Of a stretch of 64,000 bases of DNA, positions 356 to 61,279 are shown piece by piece. Position 1 is the stretch's first letter. Each line of letters begins with the position of its first letter. The notes below the pieces were generated by a model that was given only the letters and a program-made list of their open reading frames with translations, did not search any database and was not told the origin of the DNA. The stretch covers positions 29,202,001-29,266,000 of the forward strand of contig OZ024755.1 of assembly GCA_964016885.1 (NCBI GenBank), written 5' to 3'. A program made the translations under genes and the position numbers. The stretch comes from Eledone cirrhosa. Taxonomy: Eukaryota.

Positions 356-434
<79 letters not shown>

Positions 435-634
435 TAAAAAGTTAGGACCCTGACGGCTAAGCTCCGGCCGTTTTGACAGCTAGATTCGAACTCTTTTCCT
501 ATTACCTTCTCTACTACTCTAAGTACCGAGTACTCTGGTGCGTGCGTTATGGTCCACCTGGTATCTTACCACATCTTCTTTGTTATATATATATATGTAT
601 ACAGGTACATTATACGTGTTATATTGGATTACGT

Positions 635-1308: not shown

Positions 1309-1518
1309 ATATGTGTGTAATCCTTGGTACAGTTAAGTATATTAAGACAGGGGGGGGGGAGAAAAAATGGCTTCACTTGTGCTTTCAACAAATTTATTTT
1401 CTTTACAAAATCCCAAAAGAATTTTTTTCCGGATCAGAAAAAAATTTTTTTTTGATTTTGTGAAGAAAATAAATTTGTTGAAAGCACAAGTGAAGCCATT
1501 TTTTTCTTCCCCCCTGTC

Positions 1519-1562
<44 letters not shown>

Positions 1563-2878: not shown

Positions 2879-3080
2879 TAGAAGGGATATTTAATTTGTT
2901 GGAAATACAACAAATATAAATGTTTATAACTGATTTAGAGCACTTGACAGAGTTCTGGAGTAAATATTCAATGATATTAAATAAATGGAAACTATATTTA
3001 TAAAACCATATTTATTCTATTATATATATATAATAAAATAAATATGGTTTTATAAATATAGTTTCCATTTATTTAATATC

Positions 3081-3129
<49 letters not shown>

Positions 3130-3208
3130 ATCAAGTATCAAATTTGTAGAATTTTTTTTTTCTACAAGTTTCTACAAATTTCATACTTGACGGCCTGTAT
3201 ATGTGTGT

Positions 3209-4972: not shown

Positions 4973-5186
4973 GGAGGTGAGTTTTATTGTAGTACAATAA
5001 AGCAATGCAGATATCGGATAAGAAGCACTCTACAGTTTGTAGGACTGGAGTATACATAATATATAAGATCAAAAGATGGTTAAAGGAGTTCCATGTATTT
5101 TATTATGCGCATTTCAAAAACAACATATGTTGATTTAAAACTGCACTATCCACAAGTGTTTTTTAGCCTTCATATCATGTCCTCCT

Positions 5187-5255
5187 GTTTTATCTGATGA
5201 AAACACAAATACTATTGCATGATGATGTTTGTTTTTGAAATGCGCATAATAAAAT
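5187..5255 (+). ncRNA. Minimal type-I hammerhead ribozyme
   Basis: GTTTTAT-CTGATGA-(imperfect stem II)-GAAA-TGCGCA-TA-ATAAAAT; palindromic stem III, AUA site; same family at 35401 and 60283. Confidence 0.8.
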
Positions 5256-5630
5256 ACATGGAACTCCTTTAACCATCTTTTGATCTTATATATTATATAT
5301 ATATATATAAGTAGAAGGGATATTTAATTTGTTGGAAATACAACAAATATAAATGTTTATAACTGATTTAGAGCACTTGACGGAGTTCTGGAGTAAATAT
5401 TCAATAATATTAAATAAATGGAAACTATATTTATAAAACTAGATTTATTCTATTATATATATTTCTATTATATATATATAATAGAATAAATATGGTTTTA
5501 TAAATATAGTTTCCATTTATTTAATATCATTGTGTATATATATATATATATGGTCATCAAGTATCAAATTTGTAGAAATTTGTTTTTTTTCTACAAGTTT
5601 CTACAAATTTCATACTTGACGACCTGTATA

Positions 5631-7325: not shown

Positions 7326-7370
<45 letters not shown>

Positions 7371-7752
7371 CGAAGGAAATGTGGTAATGAACCAGGTAGA
7401 CCATAACGCACCAAAGTACTCAATACTTAGGGTAGTAGAGTGGGTAATAGGAACGAGTAGGACCCCGACGGCTGAGAATATATATTATTATATATATATT
7501 CTATTTTTCTCTGGAAGAGATCTGCTATAATCAGATCTGGAGAAGGATGGGCTCCGCCAGGTTTAAAATACCCAAGAAATACCGTTTGTCAATACGGCGT
7601 CCCTACGGATCTATCAGGAGTTACGGGACCATACCATCTTCTATTATGAGAGAATGAGTCTCTCTATCAACATGTTTAAATATTCCTCCTTTCAATTATT
7701 CTAAGCAGTACGATAATGTTGGTTATATTCATATTTACCAATATAACCAATG

Positions 7753-9569
7753 CCGTGATTTCCCCCAATATAAGCCATGCCCCGAAAACAAGCCGTAGCA
7801 AAAATGAACGGCAAAAAAAAGAAATGGCCGGCTATGAAAATTATAGAAGAGGATTGTCTCTTAATGTAAAACTAATTGATAAGCGGGTGGTATAAGAAGT
7901 TTGTGGAATGCGCGGAAGTGAAAATATCGATAATGAAATTAACGAAAGGAAAGAGGGAAGTGCGTGCAATCAATATTGTTTATGCAAGTGCGGGTACAAA
8001 CCAGAAGTAATGGCTTATCAGTAACTTCGGGGGAGAAGATCATTTTCAGCCCTAGACAAGATGAAAGGAAGGAAGAGTTATACAGTCGAGTACAAGAAAG
8101 GAATTGTGGAGGAATCACTGGGCAAGAATCTTACTATTTTCTGCAAAGAAAAGAATCTAGATCTCCGAATGGTTCAAAGATGGAGAATGGACTACAATAA
8201 ACTCAGACAGGACATAGGGAAACGTAAGCGTGGATCTGGTCGACAACCGATATTTCTTGAGCTGGAAGACGCCATCTGTGAATGGATTGCTGAAATAAGA
8301 GCCAGAGCTTTGGTTGTTCACAGGGCTGATATTCATTTGCCCTTACAAATGCACTAGAGTTTGGTATAGTTCCAGAAGAATTCAAAGAATCCAAACACTG
8401 ACTGAATAATTTCCTTCAGCGATACGAATTTTCTCTGAGAAGATCGACAACACTGTTCAAACTGGACGACACTGAGATTATTAAACGTGCACTCGCATTT
8501 AAGTCTTTTGTTGATGGAATAGACTTTTCTAACTACCGTCTCTCCAACATGATTGCTATGGATGAAACAGCAGTGTTCATGGGTCAAAGCTCTCAATCTA
8601 CAATTGATCAAAAGGGTGCGTCGTCAATTTACATTCCATCCACTGGTTACGAAAGTGCACGAGTTACGTGTATCTTGGCAATTCGTCTCGACGGAAGCAA
8701 AGCCCCACTTCTTATCATCACTAAAGGCTAGAAAGATACAATTGAACGCGTTTCAGGTATCTGTGTTTTGGAAACTGAAAAGGCGTGGTGCACACAGGCA
8801 GTTTTAAGGAAGTGGGTCGATTTCATGCTGCCATTGGTTTTGCGTGGAACCCAAAGAGGTCTCATAGTCTGGTATTCAGCCAGCACGCACCGCGCCAAAG
8901 ATATAAAGAACTTTCTTGGAGAAAGAAGAATCGATCAAATCATGATTCCCCCAGGAACGACCGCCTATCTCCAGACTCTTGACATCGCACTGAATAAACC
9001 ATTCAAGAACCATCTGCGCATGGAAATAAATGACTACATCGAAAACAGAATGGCGAGAAATGAGCAGGAAATTTCGTAAAGCCCAGCCTTCAAGAGATCG
9101 TGACTTGGGTGGGATATTCATGGAACAAAATCAGATAGCTGTGTCATGAATGCACTACGAACAGACTATCTTGATAAGAACTCTCCATTCAATTCGACCT
9201 CTATCGTTCAACATGAAAGACTAGGGACGAAAATTCTGCAGGCAATTGAGTCACAGGAAAATTCCACATGAATCATTGTATCCACTGATTTGTAAAACAT
9301 GACATTCCAGAGCAGGATGACATGATTATTGTCGAATAAATTAGTGGATAATTTCGCTCATGATTTTTTGAATTAAAGGGTGTGTTAATTTTTAATAAAT
9401 TTAATCTTTCAAATAAACGTTGCGCGTAAATGCCGATCATTTAGCGAATTTTTAATTTTCGGTTTCGTAATCTCGTTTTTACTCCCCCGAAAATAAGCCG
9501 TAGTGGTACATTTCGGTACATTTCAGTAAAAATTAATATAAGCCATGGCTTATAATCATGGAAACACGG
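7753..9569 (+). mobile_element. Pogo/Tigger-type (DDE_1) DNA transposon, near full length, defective
   Basis: Imperfect TIRs CCGTGATTTCC...TATAAGCC / GGCTTATA...GGAAACACGG followed by TA; internal transposase remnants. Confidence 0.88.
8061..9339 (+). pseudogene. Pogo-family transposase pseudogene (BrkDBD-like + CENP-B-type HTH + DDE_1)
   Basis: RKSYTVEYKK, GSGRQPIFLELEDAICEWI, IAMDET, SASTH, IPPGTTAYLQTLDIALNKPFK spread over frameshifted/stop-interrupted ORFs. Confidence 0.88.
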
Positions 9570-10630: not shown

Positions 10631-11965
10631 AATAATTTTTGAGGCCAGCCAACACGCTCGCAGCGTTACCGCGGGTGATGGCGAGGCTGATGTGCTGGAA
10701 AAACCAAGCGCCCTCACGAGCATCACCAGTTACCTCTGTTAAGCGAGCTGCTAGTGAAGATAGGAGTCTCGCAGTTCGATTCACCCCCCCCCCCCCCCCA
10801 AACGCCTCGAACGCCACAGACTGGAATATGCAGTTGGCTGACAGATCACCCCTGTTGAGGTAATGACATTCTGTCGTCATTACTACAACAGAGGTCCGAC
10901 GAGCTTTTTATGCCAGAGTCGGGCCACGTGCTTTTTAGCCATGGCACCTCCACGACCACTTTGCAGTGACAAGGTGTGGGGCCATAGTGTCTATATGCTT
11001 CAGCTTGTACCCATGGGAGGTCGGGTACTCTGTATTACTGCGTGACGCCAGAGGTCACGGTCGTGTGTCATCGCCTTGAGAGGTGTAATTGGGTAAGGTC
11101 GGCTTTTATCCCCTCAACCCATGTCTTCTTGGGTCTCCCCACTCCGCGGTTTCCATCGACTTCTAGTGCTCTGCACCTTTTTATGCAGCTGTCATCCTTC
11201 ATACGCATCACATGTCCATACCAACGCAACCGCCTCTCCTGCACACAGCATTTGATTCCTCTTATGCTCAGTCTCTCTCTCAATTCATTTATGCTTTGCC
11301 GTTCGCGCATATTACTATTACACATCCATCGGAGCATGCAGGCTTCGTTTCTTTCTAATCTACGTAAGTCTTCCACCTTCAGCGCCCAGGTCTCACTACC
11401 ATGTAACATTGCTGTTCGGATACACGCATCATACAGTCTGCCTTTCATTTTGAGGGAAAAGCCTTTTGCAGCTAGCAGTGGCAGTAATTCCCTGAACTTC
11501 TTCCATCCCGTTCTTACCCTAGTTATTGTACTTTCTGAACACCCACCTCCACTGCTAATTCGGTCACCTAGGTAGCAGAAGCTGTCTACTGTTTCTACAG
11601 AGCCCTCCCAGAGATTGGTGGTACTTGTTTCCTGTGGCTGTTTGCTGCTTGCTGTCCCAGCACAGCTGCTACATGTGAAGCCTACATTCTTAATTAAGCT
11701 TCCTGAGATCCCGCTACATCTCTTGTGTACCCATTGTTTGCATTTGGGGCAGAGAATGGAGTTCCTATCTACTCCTTTCCTACATACTGAGCAAGGCCAT
11801 TTCCCTGAGGGGATCTGGGTTCTGTTTTCTCGTCTACTTACAAGGACCTTAGTCTTTGTCATGTTGACTTTGAGACCCTTTCTTTCTAGTCCCTGCTTCC
11901 AAGTTTGAATTTCTTGTCTAGTTCTACCATAGATTCAGCTATAAGTGCGAGGTCATCTGCATACT
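10631..11965 (-). mobile_element. 5'-truncated RTE-clade LINE (RT C-terminus plus probable 3' UTR)
   Basis: YADDL at ~11950-11965; ORF 11068-11862 with KTKVL, FCYLGD, LHGSETW, RRLRWYGHVMR, GRPKKTW; boundary at 10631 approximate. Confidence 0.88.
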
Positions 11966-12519: not shown

Positions 12520-14524
12520 AAATCACACGGAGCCAGGTTGGACGAGTACTGAGATTTTACCAGCGATGTTTTTCTCTGTCAGGAGCCACCTAATACTCAG
12601 GGCGTTGTGAGCCGATACGTTGTTGTGGTGAAGCAACCACGAGTTGTCCTCCAAGAATTCTCGACTCTTTTGGGGGTCTGAACAAAGCAAAGGCCACAGT
12701 ATCTCTTTGTTGACATTCTGGTTGATCGCCTGGCCCTGTGGCAAGCACTCTATATGGACGATGTCTCTCACATTGAAGAACGCGAGAGCAACATGAGTTT
12801 GTCCTTGGGCTTCGAGTGACCTGCTTTTTGGGGCCACGGCTGCGCCGGACTCATCCATTGGAGGCTCTAGCGCTTGATCTCCTGATCGTACTCGGAAACC
12901 TATGACTCATAACTGGTGACGACTCTCCCCAGTAAGTCTGGTTCGGTTTCAAGATGCTGGAAGATGTCCTGTCACACCTGCACGCACCACTCCTTCTAGT
13001 CATCATTCAGCAGCTTTGGTCCCATCTTCGCGCAGATCTTCTGAATGCCCAAATTTTCGGTGATAATCTTCCAGACGCAGTCACGGTTGTTCATGCCCAG
13101 CTAACTTGAGATCAGTCAAACAGTTAGCCAATGGTCACCTCACATCCCCTACCTCCCGCACTCAACGTTGGCGTCAGTCCTGTTCGTTGAAGGCCTTCCG
13201 CTCCTGGGGTTGTCTTCCACGTCCTCCCACCACTCTTTGAACCTTTTGTGCCACTCGAAAACCCGTGAGTGCGATATTTTCTCTTCTCCGTTCACTTGCT
13301 ACATTATTCTGACCGCTTCAGGCAGAGTTTTTCCCAGCCAGACCAAAAGCTTCAGGCTGACCGCTTCAGGCAGAGTTTTTCCCAGCCAGACCAAAAGCTT
13401 CAGGCTGACCGCTTCAGGCAGAGTTTTTCCCAGCCAGACCAAAAGCTTCAGGCTGACCGCTTCAGGCAGAGTTTTTCCCAGCCAGACCAAAAGCTTCAGG
13501 CTGACCGCTTCAGGCAGAGTTTTTCCCAGCCAGACCAAAAGCTTCAGGCTGACCGCTTCAGGCAGAGTTTTTCCCACCCAGACCAAAAGCTTCAGGCTGA
13601 CCGCTTCAGGCAGAGTTTTTCCCAGCCAGACCAAAAGCTTCAGGCTGACCGCTTCAGGCAGAGTTTTTCCCAGCCAGACCAAAAGCTTCAGGCTGACCGC
13701 TTCAGGCAGAGTTTTTCCCACCCAGACCAAAAGCTTCAGGCTGACCGCTTCAGGCAGAGTTTTTCCCAGCCAGACCAAAAGCTTCAGGCTGACCGCTTCA
13801 GGCAGAGTTTTTCCCAGCCAGACCAAAAGCTTCAGGCTGACCGCTTCAGGCAGAGTTTTTCCCACCCAGACCAAAAGCTTCAGGCTGACCGCTTCAGGCA
13901 GAGTTTTTCCCAGCCAGACCAAAAGCTTCAGGCTGACCGCTTCAGGCAGAGTTTTTCCCAGCCAGACCAAAAGCTTCAGGCTGACCGCTTCAGGCAGAGT
14001 TTTTCCCACCCAGACCAAAAGCTTCAGGCTGACCGCTTCAGGCAGAGTTTTTCCCAGCCAGACCAAAAGCTTCAGGCTGACCGCTTCAGGCAGAGTTTTT
14101 CCCACCCAGACCAAAAGCTTCAGGCTGACCGCTTCAGGCAGAGTTTTTCCCAGCCAGACCAAAAGCTTCAGGCTGACCGCTTCAGGCAGAGTTTTTCCCA
14201 GCCAGACCAAAAGCTTCAGGCTGACCGCTTCAGGCAGAGTTTTTCCCAGCCAGACCAAAAGCTTCAGGCTGACCGCTTCAGGCAGAGTTTTTCCCACCCA
14301 GACCAAAAGCTTCAGGTTAGTTTGTGGCTCTGTGTCCATCAATCGGCGGCCTAAACTTGAAGAGCTATTAACAAAAGCACGTGAAAAACATACAAAGGTC
14401 GGAGAGAGCTGAAATCGCAGCTATATACTCCCTGCATATTACATCAGGCAGTGACACAACGCTAATCCCTACACCACTCATAGCTCACGCACCACACCAT
14501 GTTATGTTTCTGAGATACCTTGTA
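12520..14524 (-). mobile_element. Decayed mariner transposon
   Basis: Minus strand MDTEPQTNLKLLVWLGKT, RVFEWHKRFK, degenerate VTSYES*VSEYDQEIKR (ITGDESW motif), WLLHHNNVSAH; TIR-like TACAAGGTATCTCAGAAACATAAC at 14501-14524. Confidence 0.85.
13309..14316. repeat. 48-bp tandem array, 21 copies
   Basis: Unit CTGACCGCTTCAGGCAGAGTTTTTCCCA(G/C)CCAGACCAAAAGCTTCAGG with one variable position. Confidence 0.97.
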
Positions 14525-16014: not shown

Positions 16015-16233
16015 GTATCGACAGTCGATCGACATTTTCGTCAAATTGGACCGAAGAAACAATGTTTCCATTGTTCTTTCCAATTGCTAATACTATCTAT
16101 CAGTAGCAACTCCAGGTAGAAGGAGCAACGTGAAATAAAGTGTCTTGCCCAAGGACATAACGCATTGCCCAGTCCTGGAATTGAACTCACAACCTCACGA
16201 TTGCGAATTCAATTCTCTAACTCAACCACGCGC

Positions 16234-16284: not shown

Positions 16285-16777
16285 CATTCACAGACGGTAG
16301 TATTTGAATAATATATTATGGTCAACTTTTTCCCAACGACACCCACTTCTAGGACTTGTCACTAATTTAGTTCTCAACCAAATTTGATCAGATTTTTTGC
16401 ACTAGAATGGCCTCATTCCAGGCTACATTTTGGTGTAAGGAATTTGAAATGTGGGTCAGTAGAAAAAAAAAGTTCCGCTAAAGTATGTGTGGTCAAGTAG
16501 TGGTGGATAAGGCCCCTCATCGACTTTGACTCATCATAACCTTTTAAATGTCCTATCTCAGTAGATAGAACTCGATAAGCTGAATCGAAATTTGTCAATA
16601 TTGAAAAGATTGGTGCCATAGAAATCGAGTTGTGTGACTTTAAGTGACGAAATTAGATGAAGAGTAACGCTAAGGGACATAAATTTAGTATAAATTCATC
16701 GTAGATGTACTAAGTAGTTTCCCTTAATTATAGTTATTCACAAAAGGCTTGATGGAATTTTTGGAGATCCCCCCAAA

Positions 16778-17765
16778 ATGGCATATCCTTTTGGAAAAAT
16801 GATTCTTCTTTTGTTTGGTGATTTGATGCCATCTGTAAATGAAAAACCAGTATTTTCTAGAATTTCATCATATTATGCCAAAAGAACAGAAATTGGCATT
16901 AGTGGGCATTCGTTGTGGAAATACTTTCAATATGATGAGCTAACCATTAATATGAAACAAAAAGAAGACAAAGACAACTATGTTGATATTTTGGGAAGAA
17001 TTAGGATTGGTTCCCCATCAGACTCTGATATAAGCATTCTTCAAAAAAGATGCCTATTTCCTAATAGAAAAGAATCTGTTGAAGAAATTGCTAAAAAAAT
17101 TGATTGAATTGTATTCTATTCCTGAATTAAAATTTGTATGCATTTTACTTTTGAATGAAGCTGTTGATGAGTTGAATAATGAAATGATTTTAAAAAATGC
17201 AACATGAATGCAGTGAAACTTGCTGCAAAAGATTCTGGTATGAGACAAGTAAATGGAAGAAAAAAAGAAAAATGTTGAAAAAGGCAAAAACAAGAAAACT
17301 TCTGATACTGCTGGACTAGAAACTTTGCTAAATGTTGGAATTGGAGCAAGAGTGATGTTGACACGAAACATTGATGTAGATCAAGGCTTTATGCAATGGT
17401 GTTATTGGACAGTTATTGAATTAATTGGGAATGGAAGCAATGTTGACAAAATGTTGGTGTCTTTTGATACCAAAAAGGACAAACCCAGTTCCATTGGAAG
17501 AGTTCAAGCAGACTATGAAATTTCTCCTGGTGTTTTTGTCACCAGAACACAATTTCCATTGTCTCTTGCTTACTCTATAACAATTCACAAGTCACAAGGA
17601 ATTTCTGTGGATGGAATAATTGCTGATTTAGGAAATCAGATATTTTCTGATGGTCAAGCTTATGTGGTTCTTTCAAGAGCCAGAAAACTTTGCAATGTGT
17701 ATCTCTGTGACTTTGATCCAAGATCATTGATCGTGGTTGACAAATCTGCATGGGAAGAATTTACG
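16778..17765 (+). pseudogene. Helitron-type PIF1-family helicase fragment
   Basis: PFG..ILLLFGDL, LTINMKQ, ILGRIRIG, VGIGARVMLTRNID, RTQFPLSLAYSITIHKSQG, FSDGQAYVVLSR; frameshifted, intronless, 3' end interrupted by a SINE. Confidence 0.85.
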
Positions 17766-17784
17766 ATCTGCCTTCAAGTTCCGC

Positions 17785-18424
17785 CGAGGTTAACTTTGCC
17801 TTTCATCCTTACGGGGGGGGGGGGATAAAATAAAGTACCAGTAATGCACTGGGATAATTGCTGGCCTTGTGCCAAAAAAGTAGAAACAATTATTATTAGT
17901 GTGGATTAGCAGTATCAGTAGCGGGTCGGACGCCATGTTTTGCAGCATAGAGTTACGGCCCTTTACGGTCTGTGTTCAAATCCCGCCGCGGTTAACTTTG
18001 CTTTTTCATCCTTACGAGGTCTATAAAATATAGTACCAGTAATGCACTGGGATGATTGCTGGCTTTGTGCCAAAATTAGAAACAATTATTATTAGTGTTA
18101 CTATTATTACGACGCTATCAATTATATAACATTCCGTTAGCTTTGCATTTCAGTGCACTCCATATTTAGCATCAACAATCAATATGAATGATGCAGTAAA
18201 ATGTTTGACTCTTTACTCAATATTATTCTACATAGAGCGGTGAATTGGCAGTATCGGTAGAGGGTCGGACGCCTTGCTTTGACGCATAGAGTTACGGCCC
18301 TTGCCATTCTGAGTTCAAATCCCGCCGAGGTTAACTATGCCTTTCATCCTTACGGGGTCGATAAAATGAAGTACCAATAATGTACTGGGTGATTGCTGGC
18401 CTTGTGCCAATAGTAGAAACAATT
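17785..18424 (+). mobile_element. Three SINE family 1 copies
   Basis: 17785-17890, 17899-18088, 18237-18424; last has TSD ATTATTCTACATAGA. Confidence 0.88.
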
Positions 18425-22457: not shown

Positions 22458-22495
22458 GATAGATATAGATATAGATATATAGATATATATATATA

Positions 22496-22688
22496 GGAAC
22501 AAGTAAGATCCCGATGGCTGAGCTCAAGCCGTTTCGACGGCTAATTCTGGAATCCCAGAATTAGCCGTCGAAACGGCTTGAGCTCAGCCATCGGGGTCTT
22601 ACTTGTTCCTATTACCCACTCTACTACCCTAAGTATTGGGTGCTTTGGTGCGTTATGGTCCACCTGGTTCCTTACCACATATCCTTCG

Positions 22689-22690
<2 letters not shown>
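22496..22690 (+). mobile_element. Fold-back PLE-pLTR-like element (family A) in (TA)n
   Basis: Inverted arms centred at ~22553 plus tail CCTATTACCCACTCTACTACCCTAAG...CCTTCGTT(TA)n; relatives at ~433-585, 7369-7477, 22730-22866, 25315-25455, 26736-26890, 32152-32282, 34270-34452, 34482-34640, 48254-48670, 60437-60573. Confidence 0.75.
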
Positions 22691-22732
<42 letters not shown>

Positions 22733-22870
22733 AAGGAAATGTAGTTGGGAACCAGGAGGACCACAAAGCACCAGAGTACTCGATACTCTAGGTAATAGAG
22801 TGAGTCCAGAAATAGCCGTCGAAACGGCTTGAGCTCTGCCGTCGGGGTCCTGCACCTCTTTTCCTATATT

Positions 22871-23025
22871 GGACCGGGCGATGCGTTATGTCCTTGAGCA
22901 AGACACTTTCTTTCACGTAGCTCCCTCTACATGGGGTTGCTACCAATAGATAGTACTACCAACTGGAAAGACCAACGGAAACATTGTGTCCCCGGTCCGA
23001 TTTGACGATAGTCGATCGATTTTTT
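22871..23025 (+). mobile_element. 5'-truncated SINE family B
   Basis: GATGCGTTATGTCCTTGAGCAAGACACT...TTTGACGATAGTCGATC then (TA)n. Confidence 0.75.
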
Positions 23026-23027
23026 TC

Positions 23028-23086
<59 letters not shown>

Positions 23087-24322: not shown

Positions 24323-25642
24323 TATTATCGTCTGTGAACCAGAAACTTTTGGTAATGGAGTAGTTATATTTTGCGTTGTTCACTTTCTAATTAAATATAT
24401 ACAGACACATATATACATTCATACATACATATACACATGGTGGCTGCCAACTCGTTTTCGAGTACGGTCACTACTTTATATCCATGTAGGAGAACCCCTA
24501 CCGATGCGCTGAACGAGTGAGACTTTTTAGTCCAGCCAACGACTTGAAAGATCTGGTACAAACACTACACTTGTGACAATTATTGACACATAGTGCTGGG
24601 CCCATAGTACCATGTGACGACAAGTGCAGAGAGATCACCAGATATAAAGCAATGCCTGTGCCGTGAAGGTTTTATAGTGAGCAAAGGCACTGCACAAAAC
24701 CAGTCCCACTCTCTTAACCAAGATGATATTTACCAAAAAGAAGAACAAGTCAACATCATTGGATACCATCAGAGTTGCAAGTGTTATATCAGAGTTTTCC
24801 TTCTCCTAGAATTCTACCTTGTCAAAGGCTAAAGGGTCATCTCTCCCGGTGATTTTGGATTGCCATAGACTCTTAAGAAGTCATTTGCCCTTTGACAGGT
24901 TTTGTTTTAGTCCTGCAGGATATCCAAAGTCACCCTCCTCACCAAGAAACCTTGGTAGGGTTGCCAGTTTAGTCGCCAACGACCCGACCATGAGACAGGT
25001 TGTACTGGGATACATTTTACCAGTAGCACCAACTGGTGATCTGACATAACATACATACATACATACATACATACATGCATACATATATACATATATATAA
25101 TATTAATAAAAGGAAAATATCTTTATGAAACCATATTTAGTTTATTATACGTATTTCAAGGGTAATAATTAGTATCCTTGATATTTTTCATTTAATAATA
25201 TTATTGATATCAATGTTACTCCAGATAAAAAACTGTTGAGTGCTTCTAATCTGTTGTAAAATTAGGTTTGTTGAATAATCAACAAACCGTATAACTCATT
25301 GTTTATATATACATATAACGAAGGAAGTGTGGTAAGGAACCAGGTGGACCATAATGCACCAGAGTACTCAATACATTTGGTAACAGAGTGGGTAATAGGA
25401 AAATGTTCAAGACCCCGACAGCAGAGCTCAAGCCGTTTCGACGGCTATTTCTGGAATAAATTAGAATTTTAGCGTGGTAGTAAATAGCCGAAAATTTAAA
25501 GGGCAAATTCCTTATATGGGTGTGCGATAATGATGCATTTCTGAAGATAATAGGAATACACGCCGATATAAGGAATTACCCCTTGAAAAGTTCGGCTATT
25601 TACTACCACGTTAAAAATCTAATTTTTGTGGATGAATATATA

Positions 25643-26670: not shown

Positions 26671-26735
<65 letters not shown>

Positions 26736-26741
<6 letters not shown>

Positions 26742-26890
26742 GAGTCAGGTCCCCGACAGTTGAGCTCCGGCCGTTTCGACAGCTAGACCCGGAATTCGGA
26801 TCTAGCTGTTGAAACGGCCGGAGCTCAACCGTTGGGGTCCTGACTCTTTTCCTATTACCCACTCTACTACCCCAAGTATCGAGTACTCTG
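26736..26890 (+). mobile_element. Fold-back element, family A
   Basis: GGAAAAGAGTCAGG...GAATTC...CCTGACTCTTTTCC palindrome next to (TA)n(GA)n. Confidence 0.75.
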
Positions 26891-31948: not shown

Positions 31949-32151
31949 TATATTTTGACGGAGTTAGCTACATCTTAAGTGTGGTATCGTATAGCTTGAA
32001 TTCAATTTCATCTAATATTTTTAGTTTAAGCATCTGTCTTTAATTTACATATGAGTTTTGATTTCTACATTTGCAACGTGTTGTAGAAGGCGGCGAATTG
32101 GCAGAGTCGTAAAGACGTCGGATAGAGTGCTTTACAACAGAGTCATATCTA

Positions 32152-32282
32152 TAGGAAAATAGTCAGGACCCCGACGGCTGAGGTCCCGCCATTTCGACAG
32201 CTAGATCCGAACGGTTCTAGAATTCGGATCTACCTGTCGAAACGGCCGGAGCTCAGCCGTCGGGGTCCTGACTCTTTTCCTA
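32152..32282. mobile_element. Fold-back element, family A
   Basis: ~55-bp inverted arms around TTCTAGAA, right end in (TA)n. Confidence 0.75.
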
Positions 32283-32304
32283 TATATATATATATTATAT
32301 ATCT

Positions 32305-32570: not shown

Positions 32571-32648
32571 ATATATATTATATATATATATATTACATAT
32601 ATAGTGACGAAACATAAGTCAATTGCATGAACTCATAATCCTTTATTT

Positions 32649-32704
32649 ACTGCTATATATATTTCGATGATAGCCATTGAATGGATATGACCTCATCAGG
32701 AAGT
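32649..32704 (-). ncRNA. Hammerhead ribozyme, inverted copy of 32782
   Basis: Reverse complement of the 32782-32837 motif with one substitution each in stems I and II. Confidence 0.7.
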
Positions 32705-32781
32705 TAGTCAGTTCTTAGATATGCCAGCTCTGTGTGTATGGTGTTGATGGTATCAGAGCCTTGGGATATAAGAACTGACTA

Positions 32782-32837
32782 ACTGCCTGATGAGGTCATA
32801 GCCATTCAATGGCTATCATCGAAATATATATAGCAGT
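32782..32837 (+). ncRNA. Minimal type-I hammerhead ribozyme
   Basis: ACTGC-CTGATGA-GGTC ATAGCCATT c AATGGCTAT CATC-GAAA-TATATA-TA-GCAGT; palindromic stem III, AUA site. Confidence 0.85.
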
Positions 32838-34269
32838 AAATATATTCAGATATTGATACATATTGATGAATTCAGATATTGATACATTTTGTTTGAAATA
32901 TATTCGTTTTCATTGGTACACGCTCAGAAAATTTCAAAGAGTTAAAAGGAAGATTAGAATTAAATTAGAAGAATTCATTGCTTTAAATAGGTATCAAGAC
33001 ATTCAATCACGCAGAGTAAGAAGGTGCATTTGTAATAAAATCAATTAGTTTCAAATTTTGAAAGGAGTCTACATGAATCGACTTGGCAAGAAATTAATTT
33101 ACCAAACTGAAAGAGAGATTACATTGATTCATTTGGGATTTGTACTAAGAACATAAAAATCTGTAACTAAATACCGTCAAGCATTTTATTAGATCCCCCC
33201 CACGACCCTACCAATCCACCATCCCTGTTTTCACTAATATGAGGAATACAATATCTACATGGGTTTCAATGGAACGACCTTTATGCCTTTATGTTTATTG
33301 GAAATACATAATATTCACAATATCCATTCCGAACTTTTAAGATTTCAGTCTTCAGACTAGAAATAATTATAATCCTATGCAATTCTTGTTAAACGCTTCA
33401 GTTTAATTACTTCTACAAGAACTTAATTAACACTATTTATGTCCCTAATTTAATTCTAATAATGTTCTGTCGATATTAGTTATTATAATTACTATGGGCA
33501 TTATTTATTAAGCTGTGCACATTAATTAAATCCTGATCACAAACATTTGGTGTATTACAAAGACCAGCGAAATCTAACTATCAGGTTAAATATTGTCATT
33601 CCCATTATACGACTATAAAATAAATGATATACGAGAATTTATTGCCAAATGTATTATAGCCTGGCATGACAACATTCCTTTATACATTTACAGTCTTTTG
33701 ATGAAAACAATTAACGATATTTATGCAGTTATATATTGTTTTCTTTGTGTGTATATACTCGACACTGTCATGAACCAGATTGCTATAAAACGTAGTTAAT
33801 CGGCCCAATAACTAAGTATGAAACATATATCTATTGATCCGGTTATGCCATACCCATGTGTGGTTGGGGAGGATAGCACGCTTTCTATTATACAACATAT
33901 GCATGTAGTGCAATAGTGTTGCCTGTCATATTAAATGATCTTCAATTTCCGGTTTGTTTCTACACATCTATAGATGCTGATGTTTATGCAGCATAGCTGA
34001 ATGGTGAAGACGTTCAGTTGGCATTCATTACGACATATATTTGATCCTATTATACAATTGCCGTTTATTTTAAGCTCCGGTCAAGCCAAGCCGTGTAAGT
34101 GAAATTATTTAAACAGAAAATGTTTGAAAGCCCTTTGGAAGAATGGTATCTCTAATTCAACGGTAATCCTTGTAGCCCAGTATGTGAGACCGGCAGTAGA
34201 ATACTCAGCCCCTTCCGTTGTACATTTAAGTAGGTCTCGAATTTTTCATATATATATATATATATATAT

Positions 34270-34452
34270 AACAAAGGAATTGTGGTAAGGAACCAGATGG
34301 ACTCAATATTTAGGGTAGTAGAGAGGGAAATGGGAAAAGTATGACCCCGACGGCAGAGCTGAAGCTGTTTCGACGGCTATTTGTGGACTCAAATAGTCCA
34401 GAAGTAGCCGTCGAAACGGCTTGAGCTCTGCTGTCGGGGTCATACTTTTTCT

Positions 34453-34483
<31 letters not shown>

Positions 34484-34640
34484 AATTCGGGACCCAGACG
34501 GCTGCGGCCCTGCCGTTTCAACAGCGAGATCCGTTGAAACGACAGGAGCCCAGCCGTCTGAGTCCCGAATTTTTCATATTATATTATCCATTCTGCTACC
34601 CCAAGTATCGAGTACTTAGGTGAGTAATGGTCTATTCTGA
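34270..34640. mobile_element. Two adjacent fold-back elements, family A (second is a divergent subfamily)
   Basis: Palindromes at 34330-34452 and 34482-34575 separated by (TA)n. Confidence 0.7.
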
Positions 34641-34885
34641 TATATATATATATATATAAATATATTCTACAAGTATCTCCCAGTCCAGGATTGAACCCCA
34701 GACCTGGATTGAACCTCCAAGCCGCCGAAACTGATATATATATATATATATATAATAGTAGAAGGCTGGAGTGTTATATCCATAGTAACAGAGCCCTCAG
34801 TTCATGGGACGAGTTTGGTTTAAGTAGTTCCACAACAGTTGATTCATCATATCGAGAACAAATGTTTCACCGTATACGGATTTAG

Positions 34886-34928
34886 ACCGAGCTGAGGATC
34901 CGAACAAGGTGAAACATTTGTTCTCGGT
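34886..34928 (+). ncRNA. Minimal type-I hammerhead ribozyme
   Basis: ACCGAG-CTGAGGA-TCC gaacaa GGT-GAAAC attt GTT-CTCGGT; GUU site; inside a fold-back element (~34825-34955). Confidence 0.7.
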
Positions 34929-34952
34929 TTGGTGAACTAACTGTTGTGGAAC

Positions 34953-35016
<64 letters not shown>

Positions 35017-37267: not shown

Positions 37268-37454
37268 GGAGGTGGATTGGCAGTATCGGTAGAGGGTCGG
37301 ACGCCATGCTTTCCAGCATAGTTACGTCCCTTTACGATCTGAGTTCAAATCCCGCTGAGGTTGACTTTGCCTTTCATCCTTCCGGGGTCGATAAAATAAA
37401 GTACCAGTAATGCACTGGGTAATTGCTGGCCTTGCGCCTAAAGTAGAAACAATT
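37268..37454 (+). mobile_element. SINE family 1
   Basis: Full length, TSD ATTAATTACTAAATA. Confidence 0.9.
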
Positions 37455-38082
37455 AATTACTAAATACCAGAAGATTGAAAGACGAATTTCACTGTGATGG
37501 GATTCGAACTCAGGATTTAAAACGGAAAAATGGCGCAAAGTGTTTCGTCCTAAGCTTAAAATGTCTGCCAATCTACCACCGTAATCTAAACATTTTATGG
37601 TTACATAATACTTATAAGATATTATAAACGTAACTACATTATCTTCTTAATAAGATATATATTAAATATATATATATAACTGTATCTATGATAACAGCAC
37701 ACAAAGACACTAAGATACAGACAAAATGTGACAGTTAATTATGCTAGATATATATATATCAAATCTTTGTAGAGAAGGTGGTCTCATAATCTAAAGAGTC
37801 GAATTATGTATCTCAGTTGACATCATTTAATAAATATACGATACGTTTACGATATTCCAATTTTGCTTCATCCGTGTTATTACCAATATTTATCGTCACA
37901 CATATATCATTTTTATCTACAAGATTTATTACTCTTTTGCCTGTTCCAGCCATCCGGCTGAGGCCATGCTGGGGCACCACCCCAGTACATGAATAATATT
38001 TTATTTTTGTATGTTGTATTTCATACAACTTTCTCTTATATAACCGATGACAATATTATGCTATTAAGTAAATAAAGTTGTT

Positions 38083-42815: not shown

Positions 42816-43092
42816 TATATAACTTATAATAAATTGGAGTGAAAGCAACTGGTATTGTTATGCTTTGGGAGGGTCATGTTGCCAATAAGATACTTATTGG
42901 CAACATGACCCTCCCAAAGCATAACAATATCGGTTTCAACACACGTTTTCAGATAAAGAATCTTGCTAAACAAATTCAGAAACGATATATATATATTAAG
43001 GTACGTTTAGAACTTTCAACGTATAATAGCTAAAATTTACAGACATATCTTAATATGTCGAATATTTTCTCCAGTGTTGTATCGATTCTGTA

Positions 43093-48199: not shown

Positions 48200-48253
<54 letters not shown>

Positions 48254-48255
<2 letters not shown>

Positions 48256-48353
48256 AACCAGTAAGACCCCGACAGCTGAACTCAAGCCGTTTCGACGGCT
48301 AATTCTGGACTAAAATTCTCTTACCACTCAGCCACGCGCCTTCATATATATAG

Positions 48354-48439
<86 letters not shown>

Positions 48440-48669
48440 TAACAGATAAGAGTTTAAGCAAAGAATCGCTGCTTTCACCCTTAACGGGATTATTATTATT
48501 GTTGTTACTATATATATATACTATATATATTTAGTCCAGAATTAGCCGTCGAAACGGCTGGAGCTCAGCTGTCGGGGTCTTACTGGTTCCTATTACCCAC
48601 TCTACTACCTCAAGTATTGAGTACTTTGGTGCGTTATGGTCCACCTGGTTCCTTACCACATTTCCTTCG

Positions 48670-48670
<1 letters not shown>
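48254..48670 (+). mobile_element. Fold-back element, family A, with ~200-bp captured insert at its centre
   Basis: Arms ...CTGGACTAAA and TTTAGTCCAG... separated by an inverted copy of 49630-49832. Confidence 0.75.

Positions 48671-48728
<58 letters not shown>

Positions 48729-49603: not shown

Positions 49604-49640
<37 letters not shown>
48671..49640. repeat. Long interrupted (TA)n tract with TGATATAA periodicity
   Basis: ~970 bp, roughly 22-26-bp secondary period. Confidence 0.95.
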
Positions 49641-49642
<2 letters not shown>

Positions 49643-49708
49643 ACAACAATAATAATAATCCCGTTAAGGGTGAAAGCAGCGATTCTTTGCTTAAACTCTT
49701 ATCTGTTA

Positions 49709-49794
<86 letters not shown>

Positions 49795-49806
49795 ATATAT
49801 ATATGA

Positions 49807-50021
49807 AGGCGCGTGGCTGAGTGGTAAGAGAATTGGAATCGCAATCGTGAGGTTGTGAGTTCGATTCCCGGACAGGTGATGCGTTATGTCCTTGAGCAAG
49901 ATACTTTATTTCACGTTGCTCCTTCAACCTGGAGCTGCGCCCGATAGATAGTATTAGCAATTAGAAAGACCAACAGAAACATTGTTTCCTCGGTCTGATT
50001 TGACGAAAGTCGATCCACTGA

Positions 50022-60178: not shown

Positions 60179-60250
<72 letters not shown>

Positions 60251-60282
60251 GAAGATCAAAAGATGGTTAAAAGAGTTCCAAG

Positions 60283-60353
60283 TATTTTATTATGCGCATT
60301 TCAAAAACAAATATCATCATGGGATGATATCTGCGTTCTCATCAGATAAAATA
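60283..60353 (-). ncRNA. Minimal type-I hammerhead ribozyme (5187 family, best-preserved copy)
   Basis: Minus strand TATTTTAT-CTGATGA-stem II-GAAA-TGCGCA-TA-ATAAAATA. Confidence 0.85.
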
Positions 60354-60572
60354 GGGAGACATGATATGAAGCTTAAAAAACACTTGTGAATAGTGAAGTT
60401 TTAAATCAACATGTTTATTTAAAACTTCACTATTCTGGTCCAGAAATACCCGTCGAAACGGCTTGAGCTCTGGCCTCGGGTCAAATTTTTTCCTATTTCC
60501 CAGTCTACTACCCTAGGGATCGAGTACTCTGGTGCGTTATGGTCAATCTGGTTTCTTACCACAATTCCTTTG

Positions 60573-60640
<68 letters not shown>

Positions 60641-61214: not shown

Positions 61215-61279
61215 TATTTCATTATAAATATTTCAGGGATACCATATTAAATTATGGTATGCCTTCATCAGACAAAATA
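61215..61279 (-). ncRNA. Minimal type-I hammerhead ribozyme
   Basis: Minus strand TATTTTGT-CTGATGA-AGGc ATACCATA..TATGGTAT cCCT-GAAA-TATTTA-TA-ATGAAATA; same family as 63651. Confidence 0.8.

What the first reader, a model, noticed from the sequence alone, without database searches (positions are those of the whole stretch)
22496..22690. Family A: half-ribozyme palindromes folding back at predicted stem II
Seen: about 11 copies. The forward arm reads hairpin-GTC-GAA-ACGGCT tgagctc AGCCGT-C-GGGGTC, which is a hammerhead 3' half (stem II, GAAA, 6-bp stem III, GUC, stem I'). No copy keeps CTGANGA; an inverted copy of the downstream sequence takes its place, centred on the hairpin loop. Copy-specific variants are mirrored in both arms (GCCATC/GATGGC here, GCTGTC/GACAGC at 48254, GCTCAA/TTGAGC at 26736). 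Inference: nascent cDNA snaps back at stem II and self-primes, producing the inverted end and removing the catalytic core. This would be a concrete mechanism for inverted pLTRs.
Basis: partly seen in the sequence, partly recalled or inferred. Interest (0 to 1): 0.8.

Follow-up and report, generated by a model that had tools for sequence, protein, structure and literature searches.

The report
Head-to-head Penelope-type mini-insertions in TA repeats
This very common short repeat sits mostly in TA microsatellites as two mirror-image copies plus a one-sided tail, a layout already known from Penelope-like jumping genes, and it likely forms when two separately made DNA copies are joined head to head rather than when one copy folds back at a ribozyme stem.

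Summary
The palindrome at 22496-22690 is real: 59 bp around a 4-nt loop, a 77-nt tail on one side, (TA)n on both sides. The window holds 11 elements, but only 5 have two full arms. No arm has CTGANGA upstream, and no uninverted parent was seen in the window or in the rows shown from four public runs (24 of 685 loose-end rows shown). The text at the centre differs in every copy, and single or lopsided copies stop at the same boundary without a loop. An inverted truncated copy plus a one-sided tail in (TA)n is the published anatomy of Penelope-like insertions, and self-priming was proposed for it in 2013. Three lopsided copies, a copy with no tail at either end, a fixed tail-less end and a 220-nt copy of flanking DNA at one centre fit two independently primed cDNAs joined head to head (about 0.55) better than snap-back (about 0.25). 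The hammerhead 3' half is plausible but unproven, and no autonomous partner was found. Modest interest: an ordinary kind of element, but a large natural test set for how inverted pLTRs form.

The parts
22493..22550 (-). c3 inverted arm without tail; ends at the fixed TAGGAA/(TA)n junction
   Evidence: same end in 141+26 contigs of X1 and 2920+1419 reads of X21
22551..22554 (.). c3 centre (AATC); differs in every copy
22555..22612 (+). c3 direct arm; GAAA at 22570-22573, putative stem III 22573-22591 (broken here by a CpG change), putative cleavage C at 22592, GGGGTC 22593-22598
22613..22689 (+). c3 one-sided 77-nt tail, ending at (TA)n
433..584 (+). c1: full tail-less arm joined by 4-nt microhomology (ACTC) to an arm cut about 10 nt before its tail
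7369..7476 (-). c2: tail plus short piece of one arm, AT-rich letters beyond
22729..22867 (-). c4: full tail-less arm joined to a tail cut within itself
25317..25456 (-). c5: tail plus one full arm; another palindromic repeat (25458-25625) abuts the centre; reference for the read survey
26735..26890 (+). c6: two full arms, tail cut at its 3' end
32151..32283 (.). c7: two full arms, no tail at either end
34270..34455 (-). c8: two full arms, tail with internal deletion
34478..34640 (+). c12: divergent copy; tail-bearing arm cut just 5' of GAAAC, joined by CCG microhomology
48251..48671 (+). c9: two full arms and tail, with a 220-nt insert (48314-48533) at the centre
49616..49834 (-). donor of the c9 insert: flanking DNA about 1 kb away, 94.5% identical over 220 nt, inverted
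60430..60574 (+). c11: full arm and tail, 9-nt mirror, fused by microhomology to a hammerhead-bearing element of another family

Best explanation
These elements are likely non-autonomous Penelope-like insertions, each likely made from two separately target-primed DNA copies of one short RNA unit that would be joined head to head at their unfinished ends. SHOWN: (TA)n targets, two fixed 3' ends 77 nt apart, one shared 5' boundary 15-21 nt before GAAAC, variable centres with microhomology or filler, and lopsided copies. INFERRED: a PLE protein nicks both strands of (TA)n. One reverse transcription starts at the tail end and the other at the tail-less site. Each runs to the 5' boundary (an RNA end or a hard stop) or aborts earlier. 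The two free 3' ends are joined by microhomology-type repair and each serves as template for the other's second strand. The CTGANGA box is absent because the template ends before it, not because a fold-back removes it. Whether GAAAC...GTC is a hammerhead remnant is about 0.55.
For: Both ends behave as start sites. The tail-less end is fixed across the genome (loose ends (TA)n+TAGGAA in 141+26 contigs of X1, 163+26 of X2, 10 of X4 and 2920+1419 reads of X21), and c7 has it at both ends. In 3 of 11 window elements the tail-bearing arm is short while the tail-less arm is full, with 2-4 nt microhomology. The same class shows in the runs: 6 of 13 listed strand-switch joints link a point in or next to the tail to 25455 (9 contigs in X1, 174 reads in X21). 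Centres differ in all six copies. c9 holds a 220-nt inverted copy of nearby DNA between two full-length arms, as expected if two free ends were bridged by repair. A neighbouring hammerhead-bearing family shows a full copy joined to an inverted copy of its 3' part only (5059-5293), which snap-back cannot give. A purified PLE cuts and extends both target strands, starts at two RNA sites that bracket the tail, and is predicted to be a dimer (PMC11167929).
Against: No autonomous partner: no RT or GIY-YIG Pfam match among 117 open frames scanned (112 of the 266 listed, plus 5), and no 11-nt family motif in the one supplement searched. The tail is 77 nt against 30-40 nt in print. Lopsided copies and the c9 insert could arise after insertion by deletion or break repair at an unstable palindrome. 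The reverse class (full tail arm, short tail-less arm) was not clearly seen in the window. Breakpoints at 25374 and 25402-3 coincide with places where the reference copy diverges, so they are approximate. Short junction palindromes in neighbouring elements (5117-5128, 60388-60435) show that some fold-back may occur. What fixes the 5' boundary is unexplained.
Confidence: 0.55

Rival explanations
1. Snap-back self-priming: one cDNA reaches the RNA 5' end or a hairpin, folds on itself and copies itself back to the TAGGAA site. This is the reader's model; the version tied to a natural stem II is the weaker form of it.
For: Centres cluster within a few bases. Arms share subfamily variants in 6 of 6 copies and private variants in 3 of 6. 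Short mirrors sit at the 5' ends of c11 and of a neighbouring family. PMC3846280 reads junction palindromes as self-priming.
Against: No conserved loop, and c11 has a 1-nt loop. c1, c4 and c12 lack the arm that would be the template. The copy-back would have to stop at exactly one of three TAT sites, 77 nt short of the target. No CTGANGA parent was seen. In other families the centres are not at stem II.
Confidence: 0.25
2. An inherited palindromic unit (MITE, foldback or Helentron/DINE-like DNA element, or a palindromic master RNA) moves whole, and its centre decays afterwards.
For: c7 looks like a MITE between TA dinucleotides. Both ends of the unit carry a short TTCCT-like motif. A helicase remnant lies at 16718-17828 (weak UvrD_C_2 match below cut-off).
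Against: At most one end has the 77-nt tail. Centres differ within subfamilies. There are no left- or right-specific inherited variants. Targets are (TA)n, not TT, and the 12-15-bp subTIR plus 3' stem-loop layout of PMC4067079 is not seen.
Confidence: 0.12
3. The arm is the 3' part of a tRNA-derived SINE, and the hammerhead-like motif is chance.
For: One subfamily begins with a B-box-like GTTCGAATC and reaches GGGGTC at about the same distance as the window's main SINE. The descriptor has 6 unrelated hits elsewhere in the window. Stem III competes with an upstream hairpin (pairing probability 0.01-0.63 in 4 arms).
Against: A SINE profile hits no family arm and the family profile hits no SINE. 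Pairwise scores are reached by 15-391 of 500 shuffles in 9 arms.
Confidence: 0.08

Closest known systems
Complex insertions of endonuclease-bearing Penelope-like elements (PMC8557442 Fig. 2 text; Pen2a/Pen2/Pen3a of Adineta vaga, PMC3846280)
   Same: Inverted 5'-truncated copy adjoining a direct copy head to head, tail on one end only, palindrome or microhomology at the junction, (TA)n preference.
   Different: No ORF; unit of about 135 nt; tail 77 nt, not 30-40; all full arms stop at one boundary; no whole hammerhead; partner unknown.
Poseidon PLE of Anolis (PAc) in vitro, PMC11167929
   Same: Two RT start sites that bracket the tail, both target strands cut and extended, AT-rich targets. This matches the two fixed 3' ends seen here.
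   Different: PAc is autonomous with a whole hammerhead and a shorter tail. In the passages read, the paper does not link its result to inverted copies ('inverted' occurs once, for a blocking dT).
Type I hammerheads of metazoan PLEs and non-LTR retrozymes (PMC4209133; bioRxiv 10.64898/2026.07.22.740005)
   Same: C-GAAA, a stem closed by A-U and C-G, GUC and a downstream strand, about 20 and 97 nt from the two 3' ends.
   Different: No CUGANGA box and no stem I 5' strand. Stem III has 5-6 bp, where metazoan PLE motifs have a minimal or short palindromic one. No tandem arrays.
DINE-1/HINE non-autonomous Helentrons (PMC4067079)
   Same: Short, non-coding, very abundant, inverted repeats placed asymmetrically.
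   Different: 60-bp arms, not 12-15-bp subTIRs; (TA)n, not TT, targets; variable centres and truncations.

Membership tests
Penelope-like element (non-autonomous derivative) | Inverted 5'-truncated copy adjacent to the direct copy | tested here: met
   8 of 11 window elements have two head-to-head pieces; strand-switch joints in four runs
Penelope-like element (non-autonomous derivative) | Optional tail at one end (two 3' ends) | tested here: met
   Two fixed ends; length 77 nt, outside the published 30-40 nt
Penelope-like element (non-autonomous derivative) | Insertion into AT-rich or (TA)n targets | tested here: met
   8 of 9 complete or near-complete tail ends and most tail-less ends abut (TA)n or TA-rich tracts; c6 is cut at its tail end and abuts (GA)n at the other
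Penelope-like element (non-autonomous derivative) | Shared termini with an autonomous RT + GIY-YIG element | not testable with these tools
   No genome held; no PLE frame among 117 scanned; motif absent from one published supplement
Penelope-like element (non-autonomous derivative) | Target-site duplication | tested here: inconclusive
   Not discernible inside (TA)n
Type I hammerhead ribozyme | CUGANGA box 5' of stem II | tested here: not met
   0 of 16 arms; loose-end consensus beyond the boundary begins CTCAAAT or CTGAAAT at agreement 0.4, not the complement of the box (661 rows not shown)
Type I hammerhead ribozyme | GAAA, stem III and NUH | tested here: met
   10 of 16 arms pass a relaxed descriptor; 3-54 of 5000 shuffles pass a stricter one; no compensatory change seen
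Type I hammerhead ribozyme | Natural stem II and stem I | tested here: not met
   Stem II exists only as the mirror; no stem I 5' strand; no Rfam hammerhead match on any copy
Type I hammerhead ribozyme | Self-cleavage | not testable with these tools
   Needs an in vitro assay of a parent RNA
MITE / TIR DNA transposon | Inverted repeats at both termini of every copy | tested here: not met
   Only c7 of 11; others carry a one-sided tail or lopsided arms
Helentron/HINE | 12-15-bp subTIRs, 3' stem-loop, TT target | tested here: not met
   Targets are (TA)n; arms 60 bp
tRNA-derived SINE of this window | Sequence homology to the SINE body | tested here: not met
   Reciprocal profile searches give no cross-hit; shuffles not exceeded

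The most novel reading that the evidence does not exclude
Inverted pLTRs of Penelope-like elements are made by twin target-primed reverse transcription: one protein dimer primes both target strands from the two RNA start sites, and host end-joining fuses the two cDNAs head to head. This family has fixed boundaries, a very long tail and probably about 10^5 copies. It records the step directly, including aborted arms and captured flanking DNA, and it spreads without a working ribozyme core.
Probability: 0.45. Interest if true: 0.55.

Novelty: new member of a known kind. Interest (0 to 1): 0.3.

Why it matters
How PLEs form their tandem and inverted structures is named as unsolved in PMC8557442. 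The one explanation found in print is self-priming (PMC3846280). The in vitro result of PMC11167929 suggests a two-ended alternative that I did not find stated in 8 literature searches (open-licence papers only). A family with one copy per 6 kb and fixed boundaries lets the two models be separated by counting junction classes in one assembled genome. It also warns that such elements are easily filed as MITEs or microRNA hairpins. The element itself is ordinary.

Tried and rejected
Whole genome: none held, so no genome-wide census. Rfam: no hammerhead match on family copies; only hairpin-type microRNA matches below gathering score. Pattern scans: 0 matches in metagenome contigs and in prokaryote genomes. 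A loose-end consensus of 5 contigs in X4 (agreement 0.48) reads TCATCAT a few bases beyond the boundary, close to the complement of a CTGATGA box; it is too mixed to use and could not be opened further. SINE origin: rejected by reciprocal profiles and shuffles. A stem II formed inside the arm itself (TGA-G...C-GAAA), an HDV-like ribozyme at the 5' boundary and a type II permutation were checked by eye and gave no conserved pairing. Coding: no frame is open in all 6 copies translated, so no protein search was made with it. Published Naiad, Chlamys and Hydra consensus file: no 11-nt family motif; 8-nt motifs hit only contexts that look unrelated (line breaks can hide matches). Host: a protein search with the window's LINE fragment gave mostly unnamed hits at 40-55% identity, so the host group is not established; a cephalopod is my guess from recalled repeat likeness. 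Amplification or assembly artefact: rejected because the same ends and joints appear in raw reads of another study. Arm-to-tail depth ratio was not used, because summed contig depth is not copy number. Earlier scan notes for this genome: none. The supplement of PMC13282606 was listed but not read, and bioRxiv supplements are closed; either may hold a library entry for this family.

Full report
Setting. The window is AT-rich, microsatellite-rich DNA that looks like a repeat-laden animal genome, with LINE, DDE transposase and helicase remnants. No whole genome is held, so outside evidence comes from one read survey and from papers. The host group is not established.

Observation. At 22493-22612 the DNA is a 59-bp palindrome with a 4-nt loop, followed by a 77-nt tail and flanked by (TA)n. 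BLAST, motif and profile searches give 11 elements. I call the arm X and the tail T. Five elements have two full arms (c3, c6, c7, c8, c9), and c7 has no tail at either end. In three (c1, c4, c12) the tail-less arm is full and the tail-bearing arm is cut short, with 2-4 nt of microhomology at the joint. Three (c2, c5, c11) have one arm or a 9-nt mirror. All full arms stop 15-21 nt before GAAAC, whether or not a mirror follows. The letters at the centre differ in all six copies that show one, also within each of the three subfamilies.

Read survey. Laid on c5, run X1 gave 14,494 contigs, X2 15,903, X4 346, and X21 22,027 raw reads (X1 and X2 are one sample, so at most 3 samples and 2 studies). 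The family is therefore very abundant. One element per 5.8 kb in this window would mean on the order of 10^5 copies in a gigabase genome; this is an extrapolation. Loose ends show two fixed 3' ends against (TA)n. Of 22 joints, 15 are shown, and 13 of those switch strand. Four join 25451-25455 to 25455 (50 contigs in X1, 61 reads in X21). Six join a point in or beside the tail to 25455 (9 contigs in X1, 174 reads in X21), which is the c1/c4 class. Three have other partners. Beyond the boundary the loose-end consensus starts CTCAAAT or CTGAAAT at agreement 0.4. The complement of a CTGATGA box is not the main form, but 661 rows were not shown, so a rare parent is not excluded.

Mirrored variants. 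In a 46-column block the two arms differ at 1, 5, 4, 5 and 2 sites in c3, c6, c7, c8 and c9, and at 6 of 37 in c12. The nearest arm of another copy differs at 3, 4, 4, 3, 3 and 7. Private mirrored changes occur in c3 (1, CpG), c6 (1) and c12 (3). GCTGTC is not copy-specific. Subfamily variants are always mirrored and no variant marks left against right arms. Both arms therefore derive from one template arm, but this does not choose between snap-back and twin priming.

Is it half a hammerhead? The common form reads C-GAAA, a 5-6-bp stem closed by A-U and C-G, then GUC. Ten of 16 arms pass a relaxed descriptor, and c3 itself fails. Shuffles pass a stricter one in 3-54 of 5000, and it has 6 unrelated hits elsewhere in the window, so with some 20 repeat families to choose from chance is not negligible. 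The stem is conserved while its loop varies, but no compensatory change was seen, and an upstream hairpin competes for the same bases. CUGANGA and the 5' strand of stem I are absent, and Rfam finds nothing here. Metazoan PLE hammerheads have minimal or short palindromic stems III (PMC4209133, parts 1-2 of 4 read), as do the whole hammerheads of other families in this window. I put a hammerhead origin at about 0.55 and do not file it as a hammerhead.

Internal comparison. Other families here have whole type I motifs and the same head-to-head habit. At 32644-32842 both arms keep the core and the centre lies upstream of it. At 2971-3082 and 5402-5532 the centre is at the palindromic stem III or cleavage site of a family whose uninverted copies lie at 61271 and 63659. 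At 5059-5293 a full copy with its core is joined to an inverted copy of only its 3' part, which stops inside stem II. Centres are thus not tied to stem II, and the last case needs two independent primings. Short mirrors at some 5' ends (5117-5128, 60388-60435) leave room for limited fold-back.

Mechanism. In vitro, a Poseidon PLE cuts and extends both target strands, starts at two RNA sites that bracket the tail, and is predicted to be a dimer (PMC11167929, parts 1-2 of 4 and passages read). Applied here, by inference: one cDNA starts at the tail end and one at the tail-less site, each runs to a shared boundary or aborts, and the free ends are joined by microhomology-type repair. This accounts for the fixed tail-less end, the tail-less c7, the lopsided copies, the variable centres, and c9, whose centre holds a 220-nt inverted copy of DNA about 1 kb away (94.5%). 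Against it: lopsided copies and that insert could be later damage at a palindrome, the reverse lopsided class was not clearly seen, no partner ORF was found, and the cause of the 5' boundary is unknown. I give 0.55 to this, 0.25 to snap-back, 0.12 to an inherited palindromic unit and 0.08 to a SINE origin.

What is known. The inverted 5'-truncated copy, the one-sided 30-40-bp tail and the (TA)n bias are described for PLEs (PMC8557442, passages and one supplement searched). Junction palindromes read as self-priming are in PMC3846280 (passages). Non-autonomous PLE derivatives are described in bioRxiv 10.64898/2026.07.22.740005 (part 1 of 5). Helentron features are from PMC4067079 (passages). PMC13282606 (part 1 of 3) shows PLEs active in one cephalopod but was not tied to this family. 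Three earlier scan reports on other genomes reached a similar reading; they are unchecked notes, not support.

Verdict. A real, abundant, PLE-type non-autonomous element with known anatomy. The useful residue is a testable two-ended model and a large natural data set. Interest 0.3.

Noticed in passing
window 5194+, 35409+, 60345-, 32787+, 32699-, 63659+, 61271-, 60978-: Eight whole type I hammerhead motifs in at least three repeat families, with long stem II and short palindromic stem III. None reached Rfam thresholds.
   Followed up: partly
window 32644-32842: Head-to-head element with a whole hammerhead on each strand and an unmirrored spacer of about 50 nt.
   Followed up: partly
window 2971-3082 and 5402-5532: Palindromes centred on the stem III or cleavage site of the family at 61271/63659; the core is lost. 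Each is followed by a second small palindrome (3131-3190, 5552-5624), so the block looks duplicated.
   Followed up: partly
window 1343-1521, 25458-25625, 34825-34954, 42847-42935: Further long palindromic elements without an evident ribozyme motif; 42847-42935 is near-perfect with a 3-nt loop.
   Followed up: no
window 60250-60574: Fusion of a hammerhead-bearing element of another family with copy c11 through CTATTC microhomology; either a two-template insertion or a later deletion.
   Followed up: partly
window 22631-22788: The tails of c3 and c4 face each other across (TA)20 and score as microRNA-like hairpins below Rfam gathering thresholds; an artefact of two insertions in one microsatellite.
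   Followed up: yes
window 37268-37455 and about 35 more places: Abundant tRNA-type SINE of about 185 nt, often in tandem; a second SINE family at 16025-16230, 22875-23030 and 49800-50020.
   Followed up: partly
window 11068-11934 (-): 288-aa C-terminal piece of an AP-endonuclease/RT LINE with a PHD-like finger (best hits about 50% identical).
   Followed up: partly
window 13165-14472: Near-perfect tandem array of a 48-nt unit, open in three frames.
   Followed up: no
window 8025-9076 and 16718-17828: Remnants of a DDE_1 transposase and of a helicase with a weak UvrD_C_2 match.
   Followed up: no
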